NCBI GenBank assembly: GCA_951406725.2
Contig: OX597814.1
Span: 188,604,001 to 188,668,000 of the forward strand
Direction of reading: 5' to 3'
Origin: Octopus vulgaris
Lineage: Eukaryota
Length of the DNA: 64,000 nt
Part shown: one piece after another, positions 4,190-27,569 of the stretch
How the letters are laid out: every line of letters starts with the position of its first letter
Numbering within the stretch: position 1 is the stretch's first letter
Translations under genes and position numbers: made by a program
The notes under the pieces: model-generated
Told to the model about the DNA's origin: nothing
The model's database searches: none
What the model saw: only the letters and a program-made list of their open reading frames with translations

Positions 4190-4578
4190 AAATAAATAAA
4201 TGCGCCCTTTTTAAAGCCTAGCCAGGCTCATGGGCCCGGTTTCCCGGTTTCAATGGCGTATGTGTTCCCCAGCTGGACGGGACGCCAGTCCATCGCAGCG
4301 TTACTCATTTTTGCCTGCTGAGTGGACTGGAGCAACGTGAAATGAAGCGTTTTGCTCAAGAACACAACGCGTCGCCCGGTCCAAAAATCGAAACCACAAT
4401 CTTGCGATCATGATGCTGACAGCCTAACCACTAAACCACGCGCCTCCACTTGCAGCCTTTTAAAGCCTAGCCAGGCTCAGGGGCCCGGTTTCTCGGTTTC
4501 TATGGCGTATATGTTCCCCAGCTGGACGGGACGCCAGTCCATCGCAGCGTTACTCATTTTTGCCAGCTGAGTGGACTG
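4190..4578 (-). mobile_element. SINE family C, full copy (4190-4447) plus second partial copy
   Basis: tRNA-like head ggaggcgcgtgg..gtggttagg, CORE-like gttgtgttcttgagcaa, V-like gcgatggactggcgtcccgtccag; tail repeated at 4453-4578. Confidence 0.88.
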
Positions 4579-5309
4579 TAGATGGTGACTACTGTGACTC
4601 CTTTAGGCCATAACTGCTTTAGGTACATGCTTCCGATCTTGACAAGCTCTAGCAATTTTGAGTTTTGGGGTTTCCCTTTTGTCTTTCTGGAAAGAGCGTA
4701 TTAAAACCATAATATAGGCAGAAGATTCTTATTTTTGATTTCGTATTCCTGTTTTCTCCGCATGACTTTTGATTGGTGATTCTCGAAAAAGTTAATAAAC
4801 ACGTTCATCTGTTGAAGTGCAGATATGTTATTTGAGGCAGCGAATTACTTTGTATAGAGTTTTCTTGCATATATTGTAGTTTGTGATAGACACAAAGATC
4901 GTCAGGGATTGGCTAATTCCAGTTGTTATTTCACTGTTTGAATTATTTGTTTTACATTTACCAACGTAGGACACAATTAGTTTCCTCAGATTAGAATTCA
5001 GATTCAATTGATTTCTTTTCTAAAGATACAGGATAGTCATGACTGGAATGCTTTAGGTCATGGGTCAGGTCAGATCTGCTCAGTAACGGCTGACCCGAGG
5101 CTAAATGATAACAGTATAATAGCATAATTCCGTATCAGTTTTAAGTATGGCATACCTGTAGTGTTGAAAGTATGAGCATCTTCCAAGATTTCAATAATTT
5201 CAGCGAACAAATAACCAGACTCAATCGATTGAATAAACAACTTTCAATAAGAATACCTCATCTCTCTTCCTATATATCTTAACCTGATATTTTTTCTCTT
5301 CCATTCTCT

Positions 5310-5722
5310 TTTACCCTTTTTACTTTTTTACTTGTTTCAGTCATTTGACTGCGGCGATGCTGGAGCACCGCCTTTAGTCAAGAAAATCGACCGCAGAACT
5401 TATTCTTTGTAAGCTTAGTACTTATTCTATCGGTCTCTTTTGCCGAAAGGCTATGTTACGGGGACGCAAACACACCAGCATCGGTTATCAAGCAATGTTG
5501 GGGGAACAAACACAGACACACACACACACGCACATACATATATATATACGACGGGCTTCTTTCAGTTTCCGTCTTTGGTCGGCCGAGACTATAGGAAAAG
5601 ACACCTGCTCAAGGTGCCACGCAGTGGGACTGAACCCGGAACCATGTGGTTGGTAAGCAAGCTACTTACCACACAGCCACTCATGCGCCTATAGCTACTT
5701 ACCACACAGCCACTCCTGCACC
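5310..5722 (-). mobile_element. SINE family A with duplicated 30 bp head end
   Basis: Consensus match; agctacttaccacacagccactc repeated at 5660 and 5693. Confidence 0.9.
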
Positions 5723-5957
5723 TATTGTGACACCTCTGCTATCCAACCAGTTTTAATTCCACGATTCCTTCGAAGACCAGTCATCCCAACGTCTTCCATC
5801 TTTCAGTTTTTCTAGTTAAAAACTGATAAGCTCCAACGTACTTATTGGACAATTAAAAATAAATACTGGTGAATTAAGGACCAGGTTATGTTTAAACACT
5901 CACTTCGCTTACTCCCTACAATACGAACATAGTTAATTCCATTTCTTAAAAAAAAAA

Positions 5958-6278
5958 GACTCCGCCGGTTACGACGACGAGGGTCCCAGCTGATACGATC
6001 AACGGAACAGCTTGCTCGTGAAATTAACGTGCAAATGGCTGAACATTCCACAGACACGTGTACCCTTAACGTAGTTCTCGGGGATAATCAGCGTGACACA
6101 GAGAGTGACAAGGCTGACCCTTTGAAATACAAGTACAACTCATTTTTGCCAGCTGAGTGGACTGGAGCAACGTGAAATAAAGTGTCTTGCTCAAGGACAC
6201 AACGTGTCGCCGGGAATCGAACTCACAACCTTACGATCATGAGCCGAATGCCCTAACCACTAAGCCACGCGCCCTCAC
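5958..6278 (-). mobile_element. SINE with family C head and a different body and tail
   Basis: tRNA head and CORE-like segment shared with C; flanking duplication aattccatttct on both sides. Confidence 0.85.
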
Positions 6279-6746
6279 AATTCCATTTCTAATTGCAATT
6301 CAGTAACCCTTATACGAAACTGCTGATTGGAAATACTAGGCTGAATCACCTTGAATAATCTTACCTTCCAGTTTTGGTTCTGTAAACGTAATTATCTCTA
6401 CAATCGAACTTCCTCGTGCCAAGAATCGTGGCGTCGATAATCGTATTCAATTATCGAATTTATTACTAAAAGACAGTAGAAGATTGCCAATTTGGACCTA
6501 AGAAACCTATAATGTTATGGAATATTCGGTTTTTACTATATTATCAATATTGGCTTCAAATCTTGGCACAAGACCAGTAAGATCAAAGGGGGGGGGGGTA
6601 AGTTGATTACATCGACCCCAGGGATCAACATCGGCGGAATTTGAACTCAGAACGTAAGGTAATGACGGACGAAATGTCGCTTAACATTTTGCCAGGTGTG
6701 CTATCAGTGCTACCAACTCAACGTTTTTATACTGATTTTTTTTAAA

Positions 6747-7153
6747 GATAGCGAACTGGTGGAATTGTTAGCACACCAGGCAAAATGCTTAGCGGTATTT
6801 CGTCTATCGCTACGTTCTGAGTTCAAATTCCGCCGAGGTCGACTTTGCCTTTCATCCTTTCGGGGTCGATTAAATAAGTACCAGTTAAGCACTGGGGTCG
6901 ATATAATCGACTTAATCTGTTTGTCTGTCCTTGTTTGTCCTTTCTGTGTTTAGCCCCTTGTGGGTAGTAAAGAAATAGGTATTTCGTCCGTGTTTACGTA
7001 CTGAGTTCAAATTCCGTCGGTGTCGACTGTGCCTTTCATTCTTTCGGGGTCGATAATGTAAGTATCAGATGAACACTGGGATCGATGTAATCGACTTACC
7101 CCTCACTTAAAAATTACTGGCATTGTGTCAAAATGTAAAATTTGAAACCAATA
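6747..7153 (+). mobile_element. SINE family B, two units
   Basis: Meta-domain-like gcctttcatcctttcggggtcgataaa..agtaccag; preceded by a degenerate minus-strand copy at about 6553-6715. Confidence 0.9.
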
Positions 7154-8321: not shown

Positions 8322-8858
8322 TTAGTGATTCGATAACCAGTGGATGTATTCCACTGAAATTAGGTAAATAATCCTTCGAACAGACGGTCAGCAGCGACGC
8401 CTGCTGAGTTCGGCTACTCTGCATTCATAAAGGGCAAATACCATGAAACATGTCTGCAAATGCCTGACCAGCAAAGGGGAGCGACTGACCTCCCCTGTTC
8501 GTAGGTTATAATGGACACAGCTTCGTGTGTCATATAGCTAGCTAGAGGCGATGGCCTCTTGGAGCTAATCAACGGCAGCTTACGTCCTATATTTATGGAC
8601 TGCCATATTAGCTTGGCGATAACGGTTAATAACTTCTATTTTATTCTATGGCTGCACATTCTCTCTACATTTTAGTACATTTATTCTACATTCATTTATT
8701 TATTCCTTTAATTTATTTTTGTAATACACCTTTGACCTTATATTGATTTTTTAATTCTAACTTATCATGGCTCAGTAGTTAGAGCGTCCGGCTTACAATC
8801 ATGAGGTTGTAATTTCGATTCCTGGACCAGGGTGTGTGTTATGTTCTTGAGTAAGATA
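8322..8858 (+). repeat. Unclassified 540 bp structured direct repeat, copy 1
   Basis: Highly similar to 11505-12039; many hairpins, a T-rich spacer, then a truncated SINE C-type head. Confidence 0.9.
8418..8460 (+). ncRNA. Atypical hammerhead-like motif (core UUCAUAA)
   Basis: tgca TTCATAA aggg-caaata-ccat GAAA catg TC tgca; HHR spacing with U3:A8 but G5 replaced by C. Confidence 0.5.
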
Positions 8859-9196
8859 CTTTATTTCCCGTTGAAAGGAAATTTTGCAACGCCATATGAA
8901 TAAGTCTCTTTGGTCAAACTTCACTCGAGGTATGCAACACAACAACGAATCTACAGCTTTCTTGATCTATCTTCATCAAGAGTTGCTTCGATGATCATGT
9001 ATTCTCTTCTTAATAGCTGGACTTCAATCTTTTTGAGAAAACGTGTACTTCTTTGCTTCAACCAGTTATTCCATACCCCTACTGCTGAAGGCATTCTAGA
9101 GGTTAATGATACATATTTCTCCCGGTTATTACACATTAAAATACACGCAGATACATATACATATATAAAAATACAGATGCATATACATTCTCTAGG

Positions 9197-9776
9197 ATTA
9201 GCACGCCGGACGAAATGCTTAGTTGTATTTCGTCTGCCGTTACGTTCTGAGTTCAAATTCCGCCGAGGTCGACTTTGCCTTTCATCCTTTCGGGGTCGAT
9301 AAATTAAGTACCAGTTACGCACTGGGGTCGATGTAATGCACTTAATCCCTTTGTCTGTCCTTGTTTGTGCCCTCTATGTTTAGCCCTTTGTGGGTAGTAA
9401 AGAAGTAGGTATTTCGTCTGCCGTTACGTTCTGAGTTCAAATTCCGCTGAGGGCGACTTTGCCTTTCATCCTTTCGAGGTCGATAAATTATGTACCAGTT
9501 ACGCACTGGGGTCGATGTAATGGACTTAATCCGTTCATCTGTCCTTGTTTGTGCACTCTATGTTTAGCCCCTTGTGGGTAATAAAGAAATAGGTATTTCG
9601 TCTGCCGTTACGTTCTGAGTTCAAATTCCGCCGAGGTCAACTTTGCCTTTCATCCTTTCGGGGTCGATAAATAAAGTACCAGTTACGCACTGGGGTCGAT
9701 GTAATCGACTTAATCCGTTTGTCTGTCCTTGTTTGTCCTCTCTGTGTTTATTCCCTTGTGGGTCGTAAAGAAATAG
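9197..9776 (+). mobile_element. SINE family B tandem array, three units
   Basis: Three units of about 182 bp, each restarting at gtatttcgtctgccgttacg. Confidence 0.92.
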
Positions 9777-10682
9777 GATCATCGATAGAGTATTTATATG
9801 TAAGACAGACTGTTAAAGTGTCCATACCCACCAATTATTAAAAAATAAAAGCCGGTGTAATTTTAATCATTTATCAACTACCAAAAATAATAGAACCACT
9901 GTCTGTGCTTTGCTTGACTTCTTGTGTGCAAATTTTTATATATGTCTGAAATCAATACATCTATTGAATTCCAATTCGATATTTAGTCGCGCTAAGGCGA
10001 TCTTGTGATATGTTTATTCTGCGATAGTTCTTTATCAGTTTATGCTTACTGAATGGACGTTCTGCTCAGACTGACGCTGCAGGTACCGTGGGAAACATCA
10101 AGAATGACGTACAAATTGAATATATTTTGTTCAGTGAATGCATGGGTTTAAGTTGTAGTTGCCCAAAGTTGTGATGGTGTATTATAGTTTTCAAGTCGAT
10201 TAATTCGTTTGAAAGTTATTTGTCATTTACATTGTAAGCTTTTGGTAATGACACGCACTTCGAAGCCAAAAGATTTTCTACTATATACAGGTATCGTCAG
10301 AGGAGAGAATAGTTGCTTCAGATATACTTTTTAGATCACCAGTGACATAATAAACAATGGCAAAAAAGAAGAAACAAATATCCAAAATAATGATTCTGCA
10401 TGTGTGTCAGAATCCGTTGTCTAACTTTCATCATTTGATTGGTTCTCATCAACAAAATTAGTTTCACTTTCTCCCATTTGCACGCTGTTCAGTTTCAATT
10501 TGTGAACTGTTAGGAAGTATTTTGATTCTGTTGAGTGACATGCATTCTCATGTCCTCATCTGGTTCGACGTTCGTGCTCCCGTTAACATCAGCAGCATAG
10601 TATTGTATACAAAATATGCTAGAGTTGATATTGAAGCGAGTAACATTGAAAATCTGAGGAAACTGTGAAATTAATTAGGCAC

Positions 10683-11170
10683 ATTCTTTTACTTGTTTTC
10701 AGTCATTTTGAGTGTGGCCATGCTGGAGCACCGCCTTTAGTCGAGCAAATCGACCCAGGACTTAGTCTTTGTAAGCCTAGTACTTTATTCTATCGGTCTC
10801 TTTTGCCGAACCGCTAAGTTACGGGGACGTAAACACACCACCATCGGTTGTGAAGCGATATTGGAGGGACAAACATCCCATCCAGCTGGGAAACACATAC
10901 GCCATTGAAACCGGGAAACGGCCATGCTGGAGCACCGCCTTTAGTCGCGCAAATCGACCCCATGACTTATTCTTTGTAAGCCTTGTACTTATTCTATCTG
11001 TGTCTTTTGCCGAACCGCTAAGTTACGGGGACGTAAACACACCACCATCGGTTGTGAAGCGATATTGGAGGGACAAACATCCCGTCCAACTGGGGAACAC
11101 ATACACCATTGAAACCGGGAAACCGGGCCCATGAGCCTGGCTAGGCTTTAAAAGGGCGCATTTATTATTT
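10683..11170. mobile_element. Duplicated chimera of SINE A 3' half (minus) and SINE C tail (plus)
   Basis: Unit of about 200 bp repeated at about 10717 and 10921. Confidence 0.85.
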
Positions 11171-11504
11171 ATTAATAATGTTCACAGAACTCAACCGTAT
11201 ATGGTGGCCATATTAGTACCATTGCCATGTCCTTGACTGGGGAAAACGTTCAAGGGAGGGATATTTTTACCCATGTTTTATTTATCAGATTTGAAATCTC
11301 CGATCCTGTTTTCTCACAACAGTCTTCCAAAGATAGAAATCCCTCGTGAATTGCAAACTTACAACCCAATGTTCGAAAGTAGCATATAAATATTGTTTGT
11401 TCGATATGTGCAGAAATCAGTGCTACGTCAACAAATTTTGACAATATTTTAGAATTTTGCGATGTGTTTCAAAAGGAGATCGGAACAAAGAGAAATATAT
11501 TCAT

Positions 11505-12039
11505 TTAGTGATTCGAAACCAGTGGATGTATTCCACTGAAATTAGGTAAATAATCCTTCGAACAGACGGCCAGCAGCGACGCCTGTTGGCTTCGGCTACT
11601 CTGCATTCATAAAGGGCAAATACCATGAAACATGTCTGCAGATGCCTGACCAGCAAAGGGAAGCGGCTGACCTCCCCTGTTCGTAGGTTATAATGGACAC
11701 AGCTTCGTGTGTCATATAGCTAGCTAGAGGCGATGGCCTCTTGGAGCTAATCAACGGCAGCTTACGTCCTATATTTATGGACTGCCATATTAGCTTGGCG
11801 ATAACTGTTAATAATTTCTATTTTGTTCTATGGCTGCACATTCTCCCTACATTTTGGTACATTTATTTTACATTCATTTATTTATTCCTTTAATTTATTT
11901 TTGTTATACTCCTTTGACCTTGTAATGATTTTTAATTCTAACTTATCATGGCTCAGTAGTTAGAGCGTCAGGCTTACAATCATGAGGTTGTAATTTCGAT
12001 TCCTGGACCAGGGTGTGTGTTATGTTCTTGAATAAGATA
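11505..12039 (+). repeat. Unclassified 540 bp structured direct repeat, copy 2
   Basis: Highly similar to 8322-8858. Confidence 0.9.
11600..11642 (+). ncRNA. Atypical hammerhead-like motif, copy 2
   Basis: tctgca TTCATAA aggg..ccat GAAA catg TC tgcaga; 6 bp stem I. Confidence 0.5.
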
Positions 12040-12540: not shown

Positions 12541-13955
12541 AACTTAGATAAACTTAGATATGTTTCGACCAATGATTGGTCCAGGCCATGTCTAACTTAA
12601 TAGCACCACCTGAGAGGATTATTTGAATCCTGTTTAAGTCAAGTTTTGTTTATGGTCCATTCAAGTCGTGAGTTTTTGTTGGGTGAGTTGTATCCAATTA
12701 TGGGTGGCTTATCTGGTATTCCTTGAAGGAATCTATCCAGATTCCGTTTAAAGTTGATGGGAACCTGTTCCTCTTTGATCTCTTTCGGGACAATGTTAAA
12801 TAGGGCAGGGCCTGTTGAGGAAAAGAAATTATGTTGTAGTGTACATGTATGCTGTGATCTTGAATTGGGCAGGGGACGTATGGCCCGTGGTCCCAGTCTT
12901 GGATGAACCTTGAAGCTAATGTTCAGGTCGTTTGGGCAAAATTGGCGGTATATTCTCCACATCGTACAAATAATGTACCGCTCACGGCGACGCTGGAGAG
13001 AGTAAAATTTCAAGGCTTTAAAGCGATCCCAATAATCGAGAGCAGCCATGCCTTCAATTCGTTTAGTGAGTGCCCTCTGGGGTGATTCAATCCTCGAGAT
13101 GTTTTGTCTTGTATGGGGAGACCACAGTGGGCAGCAGTATTCGAGGTGTGTCCGTACAAAGGAGGAGAAAAGTGGTATGATGACACCTTGTTCTCTGGAC
13201 CGGAAAGTTCTTAAGATCCAGGAACTCATCCTACGAGCTATATCGACCTTCTTGTTGGTGTGTGCACTCCAACTGAGATCGTCATCAACAATTACACCCA
13301 GGTCTCTGATATTGTTAGAGGCTGTGAGCGGTTCCCCTGAAGGAAGAGAGTATGGCTGTTTTAGTGAGGAATTTCTTCCAAAATGCATCAGCTCAAATTT
13401 TCCCTCGTTCAGTTGCATTTTGTTTCTGTCTGCCCATTGACTCACAGCATATAGATCAGACTGGAGTTGAGTTCGGTCTACTTCTTCATTGACGATTTGC
13501 TGGAGCTTAGTGTCATCAGCAAATATTTTCACTTTGCAGTAATGTACGACACTAGAAAGGTCGTTTAGGTAGATTATGAAGAGTAGCGGACCCAAGACAG
13601 TCACCTGGGGGACACCGCTGGTGACTTTTGCTGGGCTTGAGTGGACTCCATCAACTACATGTTGTGTTCTATTCGCCAGGAAATACTTGATCCAGTGTTG
13701 AACTTTTCCACGGATTCCAACATTTGCCAATTTTGAGAGTAGGATATTATGGTCTACCCTGTCGAACGCTTTATGACATCAGAGTTCGAACCTGTTCCCA
13801 AGGCTTTGAGCACATCTTTAATGTGGTGTAAGAGCTGTGTTAGACAGTCCCTGCCACAGCGAAAGCCATGCTGATTTGCATTTAGGAGTTTGTGGGTCTC
13901 CAGGAAGTCAGCTATCTTTGATCTTAACACTCTTTCAAACACTTTGATGATGTTT
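12536..13955 (-). mobile_element. CR1-clade LINE, 5'-truncated, RT pseudogene
   Basis: QHGFR, SGVPQ.TVLGPLLF, FADDTKL, DLGV, LEYCCPLWSP, YSLQRRRER; small frameshifting deletion in the DVIxLDFxKAFD motif near 13770; 3' stem-loop and tatctaagtt tail repeats; flanked by (TA)n. Confidence 0.93.
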
Positions 13956-24593: not shown

Positions 24594-24730
24594 TCAATAA
24601 ATGGTGGTGTTGTGTTGACCGCACGTGGAGAAATGATAAGTAAGGAAAAACTTTTTTAAAAATGCAGAATGCTCAAATGAAAGAAAATTTTAATAAAATG
24701 ATAAAATGATAAAATATATAAATATATATT

Positions 24731-24771
24731 TATTCAACCGGTTTTCGTCATTGTATGACTTGTCAAGAATA
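24731..24771 (-). ncRNA. Minimal hammerhead variant (U3:A8) in inverted pseudo-LTR
   Basis: Reverse complement of 27390-27430. Confidence 0.65.
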
Positions 24772-25646
24772 TTTATGTTTTAAGAAGTTTTTTTAAAAAT
24801 TAGAAAGGGGAAAAAAAGAAAATTGCATTGTTTTTTGTAAAAGAATAATGATAAAAATGTACAAAAATTAAAAAATAAGTTCTCCGATACATTGTGAGTT
24901 CGTTGTGTATCTTGAGTTTTATGGTTGTTTACGAAAAAATTACCTTGAGGTGTTAAGATCCAAAGGGATTAAGAGCATGTGTTGTGTTGTGTTGTTAAAT
25001 TCAGCATGTTTGCAGGACAGGAAGTAGTAGTAATTGTGGTCCTGGTTCTTCAGTTCCTGTGTTGTGAGTAAGGGGAGACAACTCTTTTGAGTTCTTCAAT
25101 AAAACCCAAATTATAAAACTATCATTTTAGCTTCATTTGCATTATCTTTTTTATATAATTGCTTGTTAACTTAACTTTCAGATTTTAACACTTTATTTAT
25201 ATTATTTTCTAATAATATAAATCTGCATAGACAATTGCATTTCAAATTGTCATATCATTTATAATAAAAATGATAGTAATAACAACAATAGTAAAAATGA
25301 TATTTAAAGAATATAAGTTTTAGCTTGAAGTGATGAATGCATGGTATCTTTATATATTTGTGTTAGTCCATCCATGAAGAGTGAGGTAGAGAAAGGAAGT
25401 TTGATCAACGAGGAGTTTGCATATTAAGTTGTGTTTGGAATTTTTCAATAAAGAGATTCTCCTTGTTAATTCTCTCCTGTGTGGTGATCCCGTCTTTACA
25501 TTGGTAGAAGGGGAATATATAGAATTTGGGGTTTAAGTCTTTAGCACATGAGTCTAAGTGGTCACTCAGTGGAATTTGTCGGTATTCCGGGAGATTTATT
25601 TGTTCTTTATGCACCGTTACTCGTTTACGTAACGGGAGACTCGTTT

Positions 25647-26756
25647 CATGTTTTCCACACCTACCTAATGGAAAACTGGAAAAAGTATTTAGATGATTGT
25701 TTCATCATATGGAAAGAACCTTATGAAAAACTCCTGGAATTCAAAACCATACTAAACAACATACATCCCAACATCCAATTCACTATGGAATTAAGCAAAC
25801 ATCATCTCCCATTCCTTGATCTCCTAATTATAAAAACACCTGAGAACCAAATCATAACAGACATCTACCACAAACCTACAGACTCACAACAATACCTCCT
25901 CTTTAGTTCATGCCACCCAAAACACACCAAGACAAATATCCCTTTCAATTTAGCTAAAAGGGTATGCACCATTGTCTCGGATCCAAAAACACGAGAAATA
26001 CGCCTTCAAGACCTCAAAAAAACACTATTACAACGTCAATATCCCTCCACCCTTATAGAGTATGGAATAAAACGCGCCAAAAAACTAGACAACACTACAC
26101 TGAAAACCACCCAACCTAACACCACACACAACCTCAAAATACTTCCATACATTTCCACCCACAACCCCAAAAATATCGAAGCATACACCACAATCATACA
26201 AAACCTCAGTCTACTGTCAACAGACCCAAAAATGAAAAACATTATAAATACACACAAAATCCTCAAATGCAAAAGGCAACACAAATCTTTAAAAAAACTC
26301 TTGACAAATGCCAAACTTCACACACCACATCCACCCCCAACAGTAAAAAAATGTGCACGCTCAAACTGTGCTACCTGCCCCTTTCTACTTGAAGGCTCTG
26401 AATTTACCTTCAAACAAGGTACGAAGTTTAAAATCAAAACTAACTTCTCCTGTTCCTCCGAGAACCTTATCTACGTTCTCACATGCGCTGGTTGCCAACA
26501 TAATTATGTTGGACAAACGAGTCTCCCGTTACGTAAACGAGTAACGGTGCATAAAGAACAAATAAATCTCCCGGAATACCGACAAATTCCACTGAGTGAC
26601 CACTTAGACTCATGTGCTAAAGACTTAAACCCCAAATTCTATATATTCCCCTTCTACCAATGTAAAGACGGGATCACCACACAGGAGAGAATTAACAAGG
26701 AGAATCTCTTTATTGAAAAATTCCAAACTCAACTTAATATGCAAACTCCTCGTTGA
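25647..26756 (+). pseudogene. Penelope-like RT C-terminus plus GIY-YIG endonuclease (open frame, N-truncated)
   Basis: YLDDCF, LPFLDL, YHKPT, SCHP, Cys cluster C..SNCATC, NLIYVLTC..C..NYVGQT, conserved R and E; the first 33 aa of the track ORF come from the inverted arm. Confidence 0.92.
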
Positions 26757-27389
26757 TCAAACTTCCTTTCTCTACCTCACTCTTCATGGATGGACTAACA
26801 CAAATATATAAAGATACCATGCATTCATCACTTCAAGCTAAAACTTATATTCTTTAAATATCATTTTTACTATTGTTGTTATTACTATCATTTTTATTAT
26901 AAATGATATGACAATTTGAAATGCAATTGTCTATGCAGATTTATATTATTAGAAAATAATATAAATAAAGTGTTAAAATCTGAAAGTTAAGTTAACAAGC
27001 AATTATATAAAAAAGATAATGCAAATGAAGCTAAAATGATAGTTTTATAATTTGGGTTTTATTGAAGAACTCAAAAGAGTTGTCTCCCCTTACTCACAAC
27101 ACAGGAACTGAAGAACCAGGACCACAATTACTACTACTTCCTGTCCTGCAAACATGCTGAATTTAACAACACAACACAACACATGCTCTTAATCCCTTTG
27201 GATCTTAACACCTCAAGGTAATTTTTTCGTAAACAACCATAAAACTCAAGATACACAACGAACTCACAATGTATCGGAGAACTTATTTTTTAATTTTTGT
27301 ACATTTTTATCATTATTCTTTTACAAAAAACAATGCAATTTTCTTTTTTTCCCCTTTCTAATTTTTAAAACAACTTCTTAAAACATAAA

Positions 27390-27430
27390 TATTCTTGACA
27401 AGTCATACAATGACGAAAACCGGTTGAATA
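27390..27430 (+). ncRNA. Minimal hammerhead variant (U3:A8) in Penelope pseudo-LTR
   Basis: tattc TTGACAA gtca-tacaa-tgac GAAA accggt T gaata; one extra A makes the stem III register ambiguous. Confidence 0.65.
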
Positions 27431-27522
27431 AATATATATTTATATATTTTATCATTTTCTCATTTTATTAAAATTTTCTTTCATTTGAGCATTCTGCATT
27501 TAAAAAAAAATTTTTCCTTACT

Positions 27523-27569
<47 letters not shown>

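What the first reader, a model, noticed from the sequence alone, without database searches (positions are those of the whole stretch)
8322..12039. Unidentified 540 bp direct repeat folding into a long rod tipped by an atypical hammerhead (retrozyme or pseudo-LTR-like)
Seen: two highly similar copies 3.18 kb apart. Nested pairings ccttcgaacag/ctgttcgtagg (8373-8383 with 8495-8505), ggtcag/ctgacc, tgctg/cagca and tgca/tgca close on a motif with exact type I HHR spacing: 7 nt core TTCATAA, stem II, GAAA, palindromic catg, GUC. Further hairpins flank it (cagtgga/tccactg, gacac/gtgtc, agaggc/gcctct, gtcc/ggac). Several differences in copy 2 keep or extend pairing (tgttgg/ccagca, 6 bp stem I), while one or two weaken it. 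Known: U3:A8 is a natural HHR covariant, G5 is normally essential, and HHR-bearing direct repeats define retrozymes and Penelope pseudo-LTRs. Inference: this is a new ribozyme-bearing repeat with a non-canonical core, or an inactivated copy duplicated locally.
Basis: partly seen in the sequence, partly recalled or inferred. Interest (0 to 1): 0.8.

Follow-up and report, generated by a model that had tools for sequence, protein, structure and literature searches.

The report
Dead copies of a Penelope-driven retrozyme
The repeat is a local duplication of a mutated, likely dead copy of an abundant ~362-base jumping element whose other copies carry an intact hammerhead-ribozyme motif and which likely spreads as a small RNA circle copied by Penelope-type retrotransposon enzymes.

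Summary
The 537-bp repeat (96%) and the hammerhead (HHR) spacing are real. The 'atypical C5 core' is decay. The first ~300 bp belong to a dispersed family (2,620 first-look candidates) whose core is UUGAUAA: G5 in 67 of 69 loci; 142 exact G5 cores genome-wide against 11 non-G5. Both window copies share G5C and a broken stem II. The other ~230 bp are unique flank and a SINE head, so the repeat is a later local duplication, not an LTR pair. Elsewhere the unit is ~362 nt, ORF-less, circularly permuted and up to ~2.7 units in tandem. 67 of 69 copies end at one of two sites ~55 nt apart, 30 have inverted 5' arms, and 42 abut TA-rich repeats: the Penelope-like (PLE) insertion signature. Tandem units of one insertion share rare variants (50 of 176; 6 expected), as a circular template predicts. 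RT+GIY-YIG PLEs in the genome carry the same U3:A8 core with different paired stems, but no homologous partner was found. Verdict: new non-LTR retrozyme family, a known kind. Cleavage and circles are untested.

The parts
8322..8858 (+). copy 1 of the local 537-bp duplication (retrozyme copy + unique flank + SINE head)
   Evidence: alignment; flank found only at the two window places
11505..12039 (+). copy 2 of the local duplication; its SINE head is cut off where copy 1 runs on, so copy 2 is likely the derived one
8329..8631 (+). 5'-truncated (sub-monomer, ~0.84 unit) retrozyme copy; ends at the first of the family's two 3' end sites
   Evidence: unit positions 176-361 + 1-117
11516..11813 (+). 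second retrozyme copy, same structure
   Evidence: L002
8418..8460 (+). type I hammerhead, decayed: stem I 8418-8423/8455-8460, core 8424-8430 with G5C at 8426, stem II 8431-8434/8441-8444 broken at 8443, GAAA 8445-8448, palindromic ACATGT stem III, predicted cut 8454/8455
11600..11642 (+). same decayed hammerhead in copy 2 (C5 at 11608, stem II break shared, stem I intact)
8373..8505 (+). long predicted rod closing on the hammerhead; family-wide variants in it mostly keep pairing
8632..8765 (.). AT-rich unique flank, co-duplicated, not part of the element
   Evidence: 2 matches genome-wide
8766..8858 (+). head of a tRNA-like SINE (label recalled), co-duplicated; related pieces elsewhere in the window
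   Evidence: blastn of the repeat against the window

Best explanation
The two window copies are mutated, likely dead insertions of a dispersed ~362-nt ORF-less repeat family with an intact type I hammerhead motif, which likely works as a non-LTR retrozyme: a self-cleaving RNA that would be closed into a circle and copied back into the genome by a Penelope-like RT/GIY-YIG enzyme. Steps. (1) Inferred: a copy with two hammerheads is transcribed, cuts itself at GUC (probably as a dimer through the ACAUGU palindrome) and frees a 362-nt unit. (2) Inferred, by analogy with published retrozymes: a host ligase circularises it. (3) Shown as genomic anatomy, enzyme inferred: a Neptune-like PLE protein nicks AT-rich or (TA)n DNA and starts reverse transcription internally at one of two sites ~55 nt apart, about 180 and 235 nt downstream of the cut site. 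(4) Inferred from shared variants: the RT runs round the circle and gives permuted copies of 0.8-2.7 units, often with a second, inverted arm primed from the other strand. (5) Shown: one 5'-truncated copy acquired G5C and a stem II break, and was then duplicated 3.18 kb away with 230 bp of its flank.
For: Family: 2,620 candidates, 40 scored, best pieces 90-100% identical, on many contigs. Core: G5 in 67 of 69 loci; 142 exact 37-nt G5 cores against 11 non-G5 of three kinds, the C5 + stem II break only in the window pair; a natural copy pairs all three HHR stems. Unit: HHR-to-HHR 358-365 nt in 19 of 22 units, GC 40-45%, circular fold z -1.7 to -9.0. PLE signature: 67 of 69 3' ends in two windows, 30 inverted arms, 42 next to TA-rich repeats; the outer ends of inverted arms, which the queries did not select, fall at the same two sites in 17 of 21; this matches the two internal RT start sites and AT-rich targets of PMC11167929 and the inverted arm plus tail of 10.1101/2021.04.23.441226. 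Circle signature: 50 of 176 rare variants are shared between tandem units of one locus, 6.2 expected (46 loci); the longest forward run found is 981 nt. Structure selection: with a fold from one copy only, family-wide variants in stems keep pairing in 13 of 19 cases, singletons in 33 of 151 (p 7e-5). Helper present: intact 781-aa RT+GIY-YIG ORFs whose 3' repeats carry TTGATAA..GAAACATGT with a different, paired stem II, two 3' ends and (TA)n targets; 1,528 such cores against 44 in the control. G5C is a standard inactivating change (PMC11875169 passages).
Against: No cleavage or circular RNA was shown. No PLE with a repeat homologous to the unit was found: blastn of the unit against 46 PLE-bearing loci gave only an inserted family copy and one 41-nt hit, and local alignment to two PLE 3' regions was at shuffle level. 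Within-locus distance (0.044) is below the median between-locus distance (0.080), but it was at or below the nearest other locus in only 13 of 46 loci, and some long loci share no rare variant (L053 0 of 11, L112 0 of 14). One of two cross-subfamily structure tests was not significant (5 of 9 against 17 of 70, p 0.11), and stem changes are one-sided G-U swaps, not double compensations. The loci are top-scoring hits to three queries that themselves end at the two sites, so short or earlier-ending copies are under-sampled. In a PLE in vitro, HHR cleavage was not needed for insertion (PMC11167929).
Confidence: 0.72

Rival explanations
1. Same family and same PLE helper, but no circular RNA: copies come from linear read-through transcripts of short tandem parents, or from RT re-initiation on one linear unit, and the hammerhead is an accessory.
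For: HHR mutants did not affect insertion of an Anolis PLE in vitro (PMC11167929); PLEs form partial tandems themselves; several long loci share no rare variants between units; 8 of 9 Xenopus dimers did not cleave in vitro (10.64898/2026.07.22.740005).
Against: Rare variants shared between tandem units 8-fold above expectation; no array above ~2.7 units among the 40 best hits to a 977-nt query; core columns vary less than the average column (12 of 828 against 6.1%, inflated by subfamily columns).
Confidence: 0.18
2. The unit is the pseudo-LTR of an autonomous PLE not yet found, and these are its truncated ends.
For: Same U3:A8 core and end behaviour as the genome's PLEs.
Against: The sequence upstream of the HHR closes back on the unit itself; no shared 5' flank abuts the element in 69 loci, and only 2 of 69 loci hold a PLE fragment anywhere.
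Confidence: 0.05
3. One reading: the C5 core is a working non-canonical ribozyme and the 537 bp are a functional terminal repeat pair.
For: C5 occurs at 5 places genome-wide; the rod still folds.
Against: C5, A5 and U5 are all sporadic (5, 5, 1) against at least 142 G5; the window pair also breaks stem II; the repeat includes unique flank; no long ORF or PLE match between the copies.
Confidence: 0.03

Closest known systems
Metazoan non-LTR retrozymes (Cervera and de la Pena 2020, PMC7229834; mussel 350-390 nt, axolotl 330-350 nt)
   Same: Type I HHR in a 150-450 bp head-to-tail unit, GC under 50%, no LTR or ORF, TSDs longer than 4 bp, self-paired circular fold, 2-bp palindromic helix III.
   Different: U3:A8 core; almost all sampled copies are dispersed 0.8-2.7-mers, not arrays of up to 62 units; no sequence link tested; expression and cleavage not shown here.
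Penelope-like elements, Neptune-like by the CX4CXXC linker, and their pLTR hammerheads (PMC4209133; PMC11167929)
   Same: U3-A8 core already reported in Schistosoma PLE hammerheads; two 3' ends, inverted 5' arms, AT-rich targets, variable 5' truncation.
   Different: No ORF; the unit closes on itself; end sites ~55 nt apart against a 30-40 bp tail; canonical 6-bp helix I and 4-bp helix II rather than a minimal HHR; no homology to the PLE repeats examined outside the core.
Vertebrate retrozymes as PLE derivatives (bioRxiv 10.64898/2026.07.22.740005)
   Same: Co-occurrence with EN+ PLEs, many dispersed monomers.
   Different: That work rests on co-distribution and pLTR homology in Xenopus and sampled no mollusc; here the link is insertion anatomy and a shared rare core, without pLTR homology.

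Membership tests
non-LTR retrozyme | type I hammerhead with intact core and three stems | tested here: met
   family level; the two window copies fail (G5C, stem II break)
non-LTR retrozyme | 150-450 bp head-to-tail unit with an HHR in each unit | tested here: met
   358-365 nt in 19 of 22 units, up to 3 HHRs in tandem; window copies are sub-monomers
non-LTR retrozyme | GC under 50%, no ORF, no LTR structure | tested here: met
   GC 40-45%; ORFs of only 72-73 aa over the window copies; PBS/PPT not searched
non-LTR retrozyme | TSDs longer than 4 bp when present | tested here: met
   16 of 56 loci pass a crude >=9-nt filter, about ten are clear non-simple TSDs of 9-16 bp by eye
non-LTR retrozyme | stable self-paired circular fold | tested here: met
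   prediction only: z -1.7 to -9.0 against 30 shuffles, 22 units
non-LTR retrozyme | self-cleavage in vitro | not testable with these tools
   needs a bench assay
non-LTR retrozyme | accumulation as linear and circular RNA | not testable with these tools
   only assembled contigs were offered, which cannot show ends or circles
Penelope pseudo-LTR pair | direct repeats flanking an RT + GIY-YIG ORF | tested here: not met
   no PLE match or long ORF between the copies; none abutting in 69 loci
PLE-mobilised element | two 3' end sites, inverted 5' arms, AT-rich or (TA)n targets | tested here: met
   67, 30 and 42 of 69 loci
PLE-mobilised element | homology to the terminal repeat of an autonomous partner | tested here: inconclusive
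   only the HHR core is shared; a few PLE families examined
plant LTR retrozyme | type III HHR in LTRs, 4-bp TSD | tested here: not met
   type I topology, long TSDs

The most novel reading that the evidence does not exclude
This family is a viroid-like RNA circle that hijacks a Neptune Penelope enzyme with no sequence homology to it beyond the ribozyme core, recognised by structure, and each insertion records rolling-circle reverse transcription from two fixed internal start sites. Its genomic copies would be direct fossil evidence for the circular intermediate and the PLE helper that have so far been proposed for animal retrozymes, and a compact template for reconstituting the reaction.
Probability: 0.4. 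Interest if true: 0.65.

Novelty: new member of a known kind. Interest (0 to 1): 0.42.

Why it matters
The window pair itself is ordinary decay and local duplication. The family is useful. The helper and the circular intermediate of animal retrozymes are proposed rather than shown, and this family's insertions carry both signatures: PLE-type ends, and rare variants shared between tandem units. Young intact PLE ORFs with the same rare U3:A8 core sit in the same genome, so trans-mobilisation of a small RNA circle is directly testable in vitro. The host looks like an octopod (recalled SINE look, 2.8 Gb; not established by any search). Four searches pairing octopus or cephalopod with retrozyme, hammerhead ribozyme, self-cleaving ribozyme, or Penelope + non-autonomous listed no paper whose title or abstract start describes such a family; subscription papers, Repbase/Dfam and bioRxiv supplements could not be checked.

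Tried and rejected
RNA evidence: no RNA holder listed on record. Four coded runs laid (three guessed RNA, one unlabelled; contigs only) cover the unit in fragments. Contigs cannot show ends, strand or circles, so this is used neither for nor against. One long contig's flank traced to a single genomic locus, L107, so it is that locus's own flank and not a PLE body. Rfam: no hammerhead hit, only microsatellite-driven miRNA matches and a weak tRNA. Earlier scan findings: none. The alifold-based stem test (0 of 12 shared variants break pairs) is circular and was replaced by the held-out tests. A second ribozyme (HDV-like, twister, hairpin) in the 3' hairpins was considered by eye from recalled consensus and not found; not formally tested. 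RNase P/MRP, 7SK, SRP, telomerase RNA and IRES readings were dropped after the Rfam result and the dispersed copy number. Partner search: 30 GIY-YIG loci plus 16 larger stretches gave no pLTR homologous to the unit; the window's own PLE also did not align. A Pfam family tried for PLEs was absent from the library.

Full report
Observation. The two copies align over 537 columns (8322-8858 and 11505-12039) at 96.1%. The nested pairings and hammerhead (HHR) spacing are as described. The first 304 nt fold better than all 100 shuffles on either strand. Rfam has no hammerhead hit here.

What the repeat is made of. A search of the own genome (2.8 Gb) with 8322-8645 gave 2,620 first-look candidates, of which 40 were scored. 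Apart from the window pair, matches cover about query 8-310, window 8329-8631. The next 134 bp occur only at the two window places, and the rest is a SINE head (label recalled) that continues in copy 1 and is cut in copy 2. No long ORF lies between the copies, and a PLE protein matches the window only at 25.4-26.7 kb. So the 537 bp are a local duplication of an insertion plus flank, not a terminal repeat pair.

The core. In 28 other copies, position 8426 is G in 27 and 8443 is C in 27. Over 69 distinct loci G5 holds in 67. These 69 come from 89 fetched; I dropped 17 re-fetches, window copy 2 and two segmental duplicates. Genome-wide there are 142 exact matches to a 37-nt G5 core and 11 to a looser 34-nt non-G5 pattern: 5 C, 5 A, 1 T. 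The patterns differ in length, so 142 is a floor. C5 together with the stem II break occurs only in the window pair. A natural copy (L008) pairs stem I (6 bp), stem II (4 bp) and the 2-bp palindromic stem III without a break. Window copy 1 breaks two pairs and copy 2 one. G5C is listed among core mutations that prevent catalysis (PMC11875169, two passages). U3-A8 is already reported in Schistosoma PLE hammerheads (PMC4209133, passages). The differences between the two window copies are private changes or retained family bases, not compensations.

The element. Copies are circular permutations of one unit, running head to tail past their own start. HHR-to-HHR spacing is 358-365 nt in 19 of 22 units (four of the 22 are re-fetched or duplicated loci), GC is 40-45%, and circular folds score z -1.7 to -9.0. 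48 of 69 loci hold over 400 nt of forward sequence and the longest holds 981. A 977-nt query found no longer array among 40 scored hits. About ten of 56 loci show clear 9-16 bp target duplications. These meet the genomic criteria for non-LTR retrozymes in PMC7229834 (sections 13 and 14 read, plus passages).

How it moves. 67 of 69 copies end in one of two narrow windows about 55 nt apart (37 and 30), 30 have an inverted arm at the 5' side, and 42 abut TA-rich simple repeats. The queries end at these sites, which under-samples earlier ends. Later ends would have been seen, and 17 of 21 inverted arms have their outer end at the same two sites. Two adjacent internal RT start sites, AT-rich targets and extension on both strands were shown for an Anolis PLE (PMC11167929, parts 1-2 of 4 read). 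Inverted 5' arms and a tail are general PLE features (10.1101/2021.04.23.441226, passages). The genome holds many near-identical intact 781-aa RT + GIY-YIG ORFs with a CX4CXXC linker, which that paper assigns to Neptune and Nematis. Their 3' repeats carry TTGATAA..GAAACATGT around a different but paired stem II, have two 3' ends and sit in (TA)n. The shared core occurs 1,528 times against 44 in the control. Outside the core no homology was found, so the exact helper is not identified. A 2026 preprint argues from co-distribution and pLTR homology that animal retrozymes derive from PLEs (10.64898/2026.07.22.740005, parts 1-3 of 5 read; supplements closed).

Circle or line. In 46 loci with overlapping tandem units, 50 of 176 rare variants in one unit recur in the other, against 6.2 expected from column frequencies. 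Inverted arms share 6 of 56, against 1.6. This is what copying one circular template more than once predicts. Against it: close kin share variants too, within-locus distance was at or below the nearest other locus in only 13 of 46, and two long loci share none. Re-initiation on a linear unit would give the same pattern.

Selection on structure. With a fold taken from one copy, variants common in the family keep pairing in 13 of 19 stem cases and singletons in 33 of 151 (p 7e-5). Cross-subfamily tests gave 6 of 8 against 21 of 85 (p 0.007) and 5 of 9 against 17 of 70 (p 0.11). The changes are one-sided, mostly G-U swaps in the HHR-tipped rod. This supports RNA-level constraint on source copies, moderately.

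Verdict. Shown: a dispersed ~362-nt family with an intact U3:A8 type I HHR motif and PLE-type insertion anatomy, and two decayed, locally duplicated copies in the window. Inferred: self-cleavage, circularisation, and the PLE helper. It is a new member of a known kind. The literature searches naming octopus or cephalopod (listings only) showed no description of it. The host assignment is recalled, not tested, and repeat databases could not be checked.

Noticed in passing
window 24636-27525: 5'-truncated Neptune-like Penelope element (RT end, Cys linker, GIY-YIG; 55% identical to the 781-aa family) with a 1011-bp, 99% inverted 5' arm, set in (TA)n, and a third U3:A8 hammerhead-like motif at about 27391-27429 (core TTGACAA, stem II GTCA/TGAC, palindrome ACCGGT).
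   Followed up: partly
L091-L098 (for example L091 2745-6200): Young Penelope family with many intact 781-aa ORFs, an upstream ORF region with no Pfam match (479 aa in L094), tandem TGACGT/ATTGG-rich repeats in the 3' repeat, a U3:A8 hammerhead and two 3' ends.
   Followed up: partly
L099 3437-3988 and about 4500-6800: A retrozyme copy and a Penelope copy sit tail to tail across a long TA-rich microsatellite; shared target preference, not one event.
   Followed up: partly
window 12639-13778 (-): 379-aa open frame that looks like a LINE reverse transcriptase fragment (label recalled).
   Followed up: no
window 9198-9777, 10686-11115 and many other places: 184-bp and ~204-bp period tandem units of abundant dispersed repeats lie between the two copies (families D11, D16).
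   Followed up: no
family alignment, unit positions 285-286: Two subfamilies differ in hammerhead loop II (CAAATA against CAACAA) and at about 15 linked positions.
   Followed up: partly
L044 and L053 (C15, 95 kb apart); L010 and L025 (C30): Pairs of insertions with the same flanks, so segmental duplications carry family copies elsewhere too.
   Followed up: no
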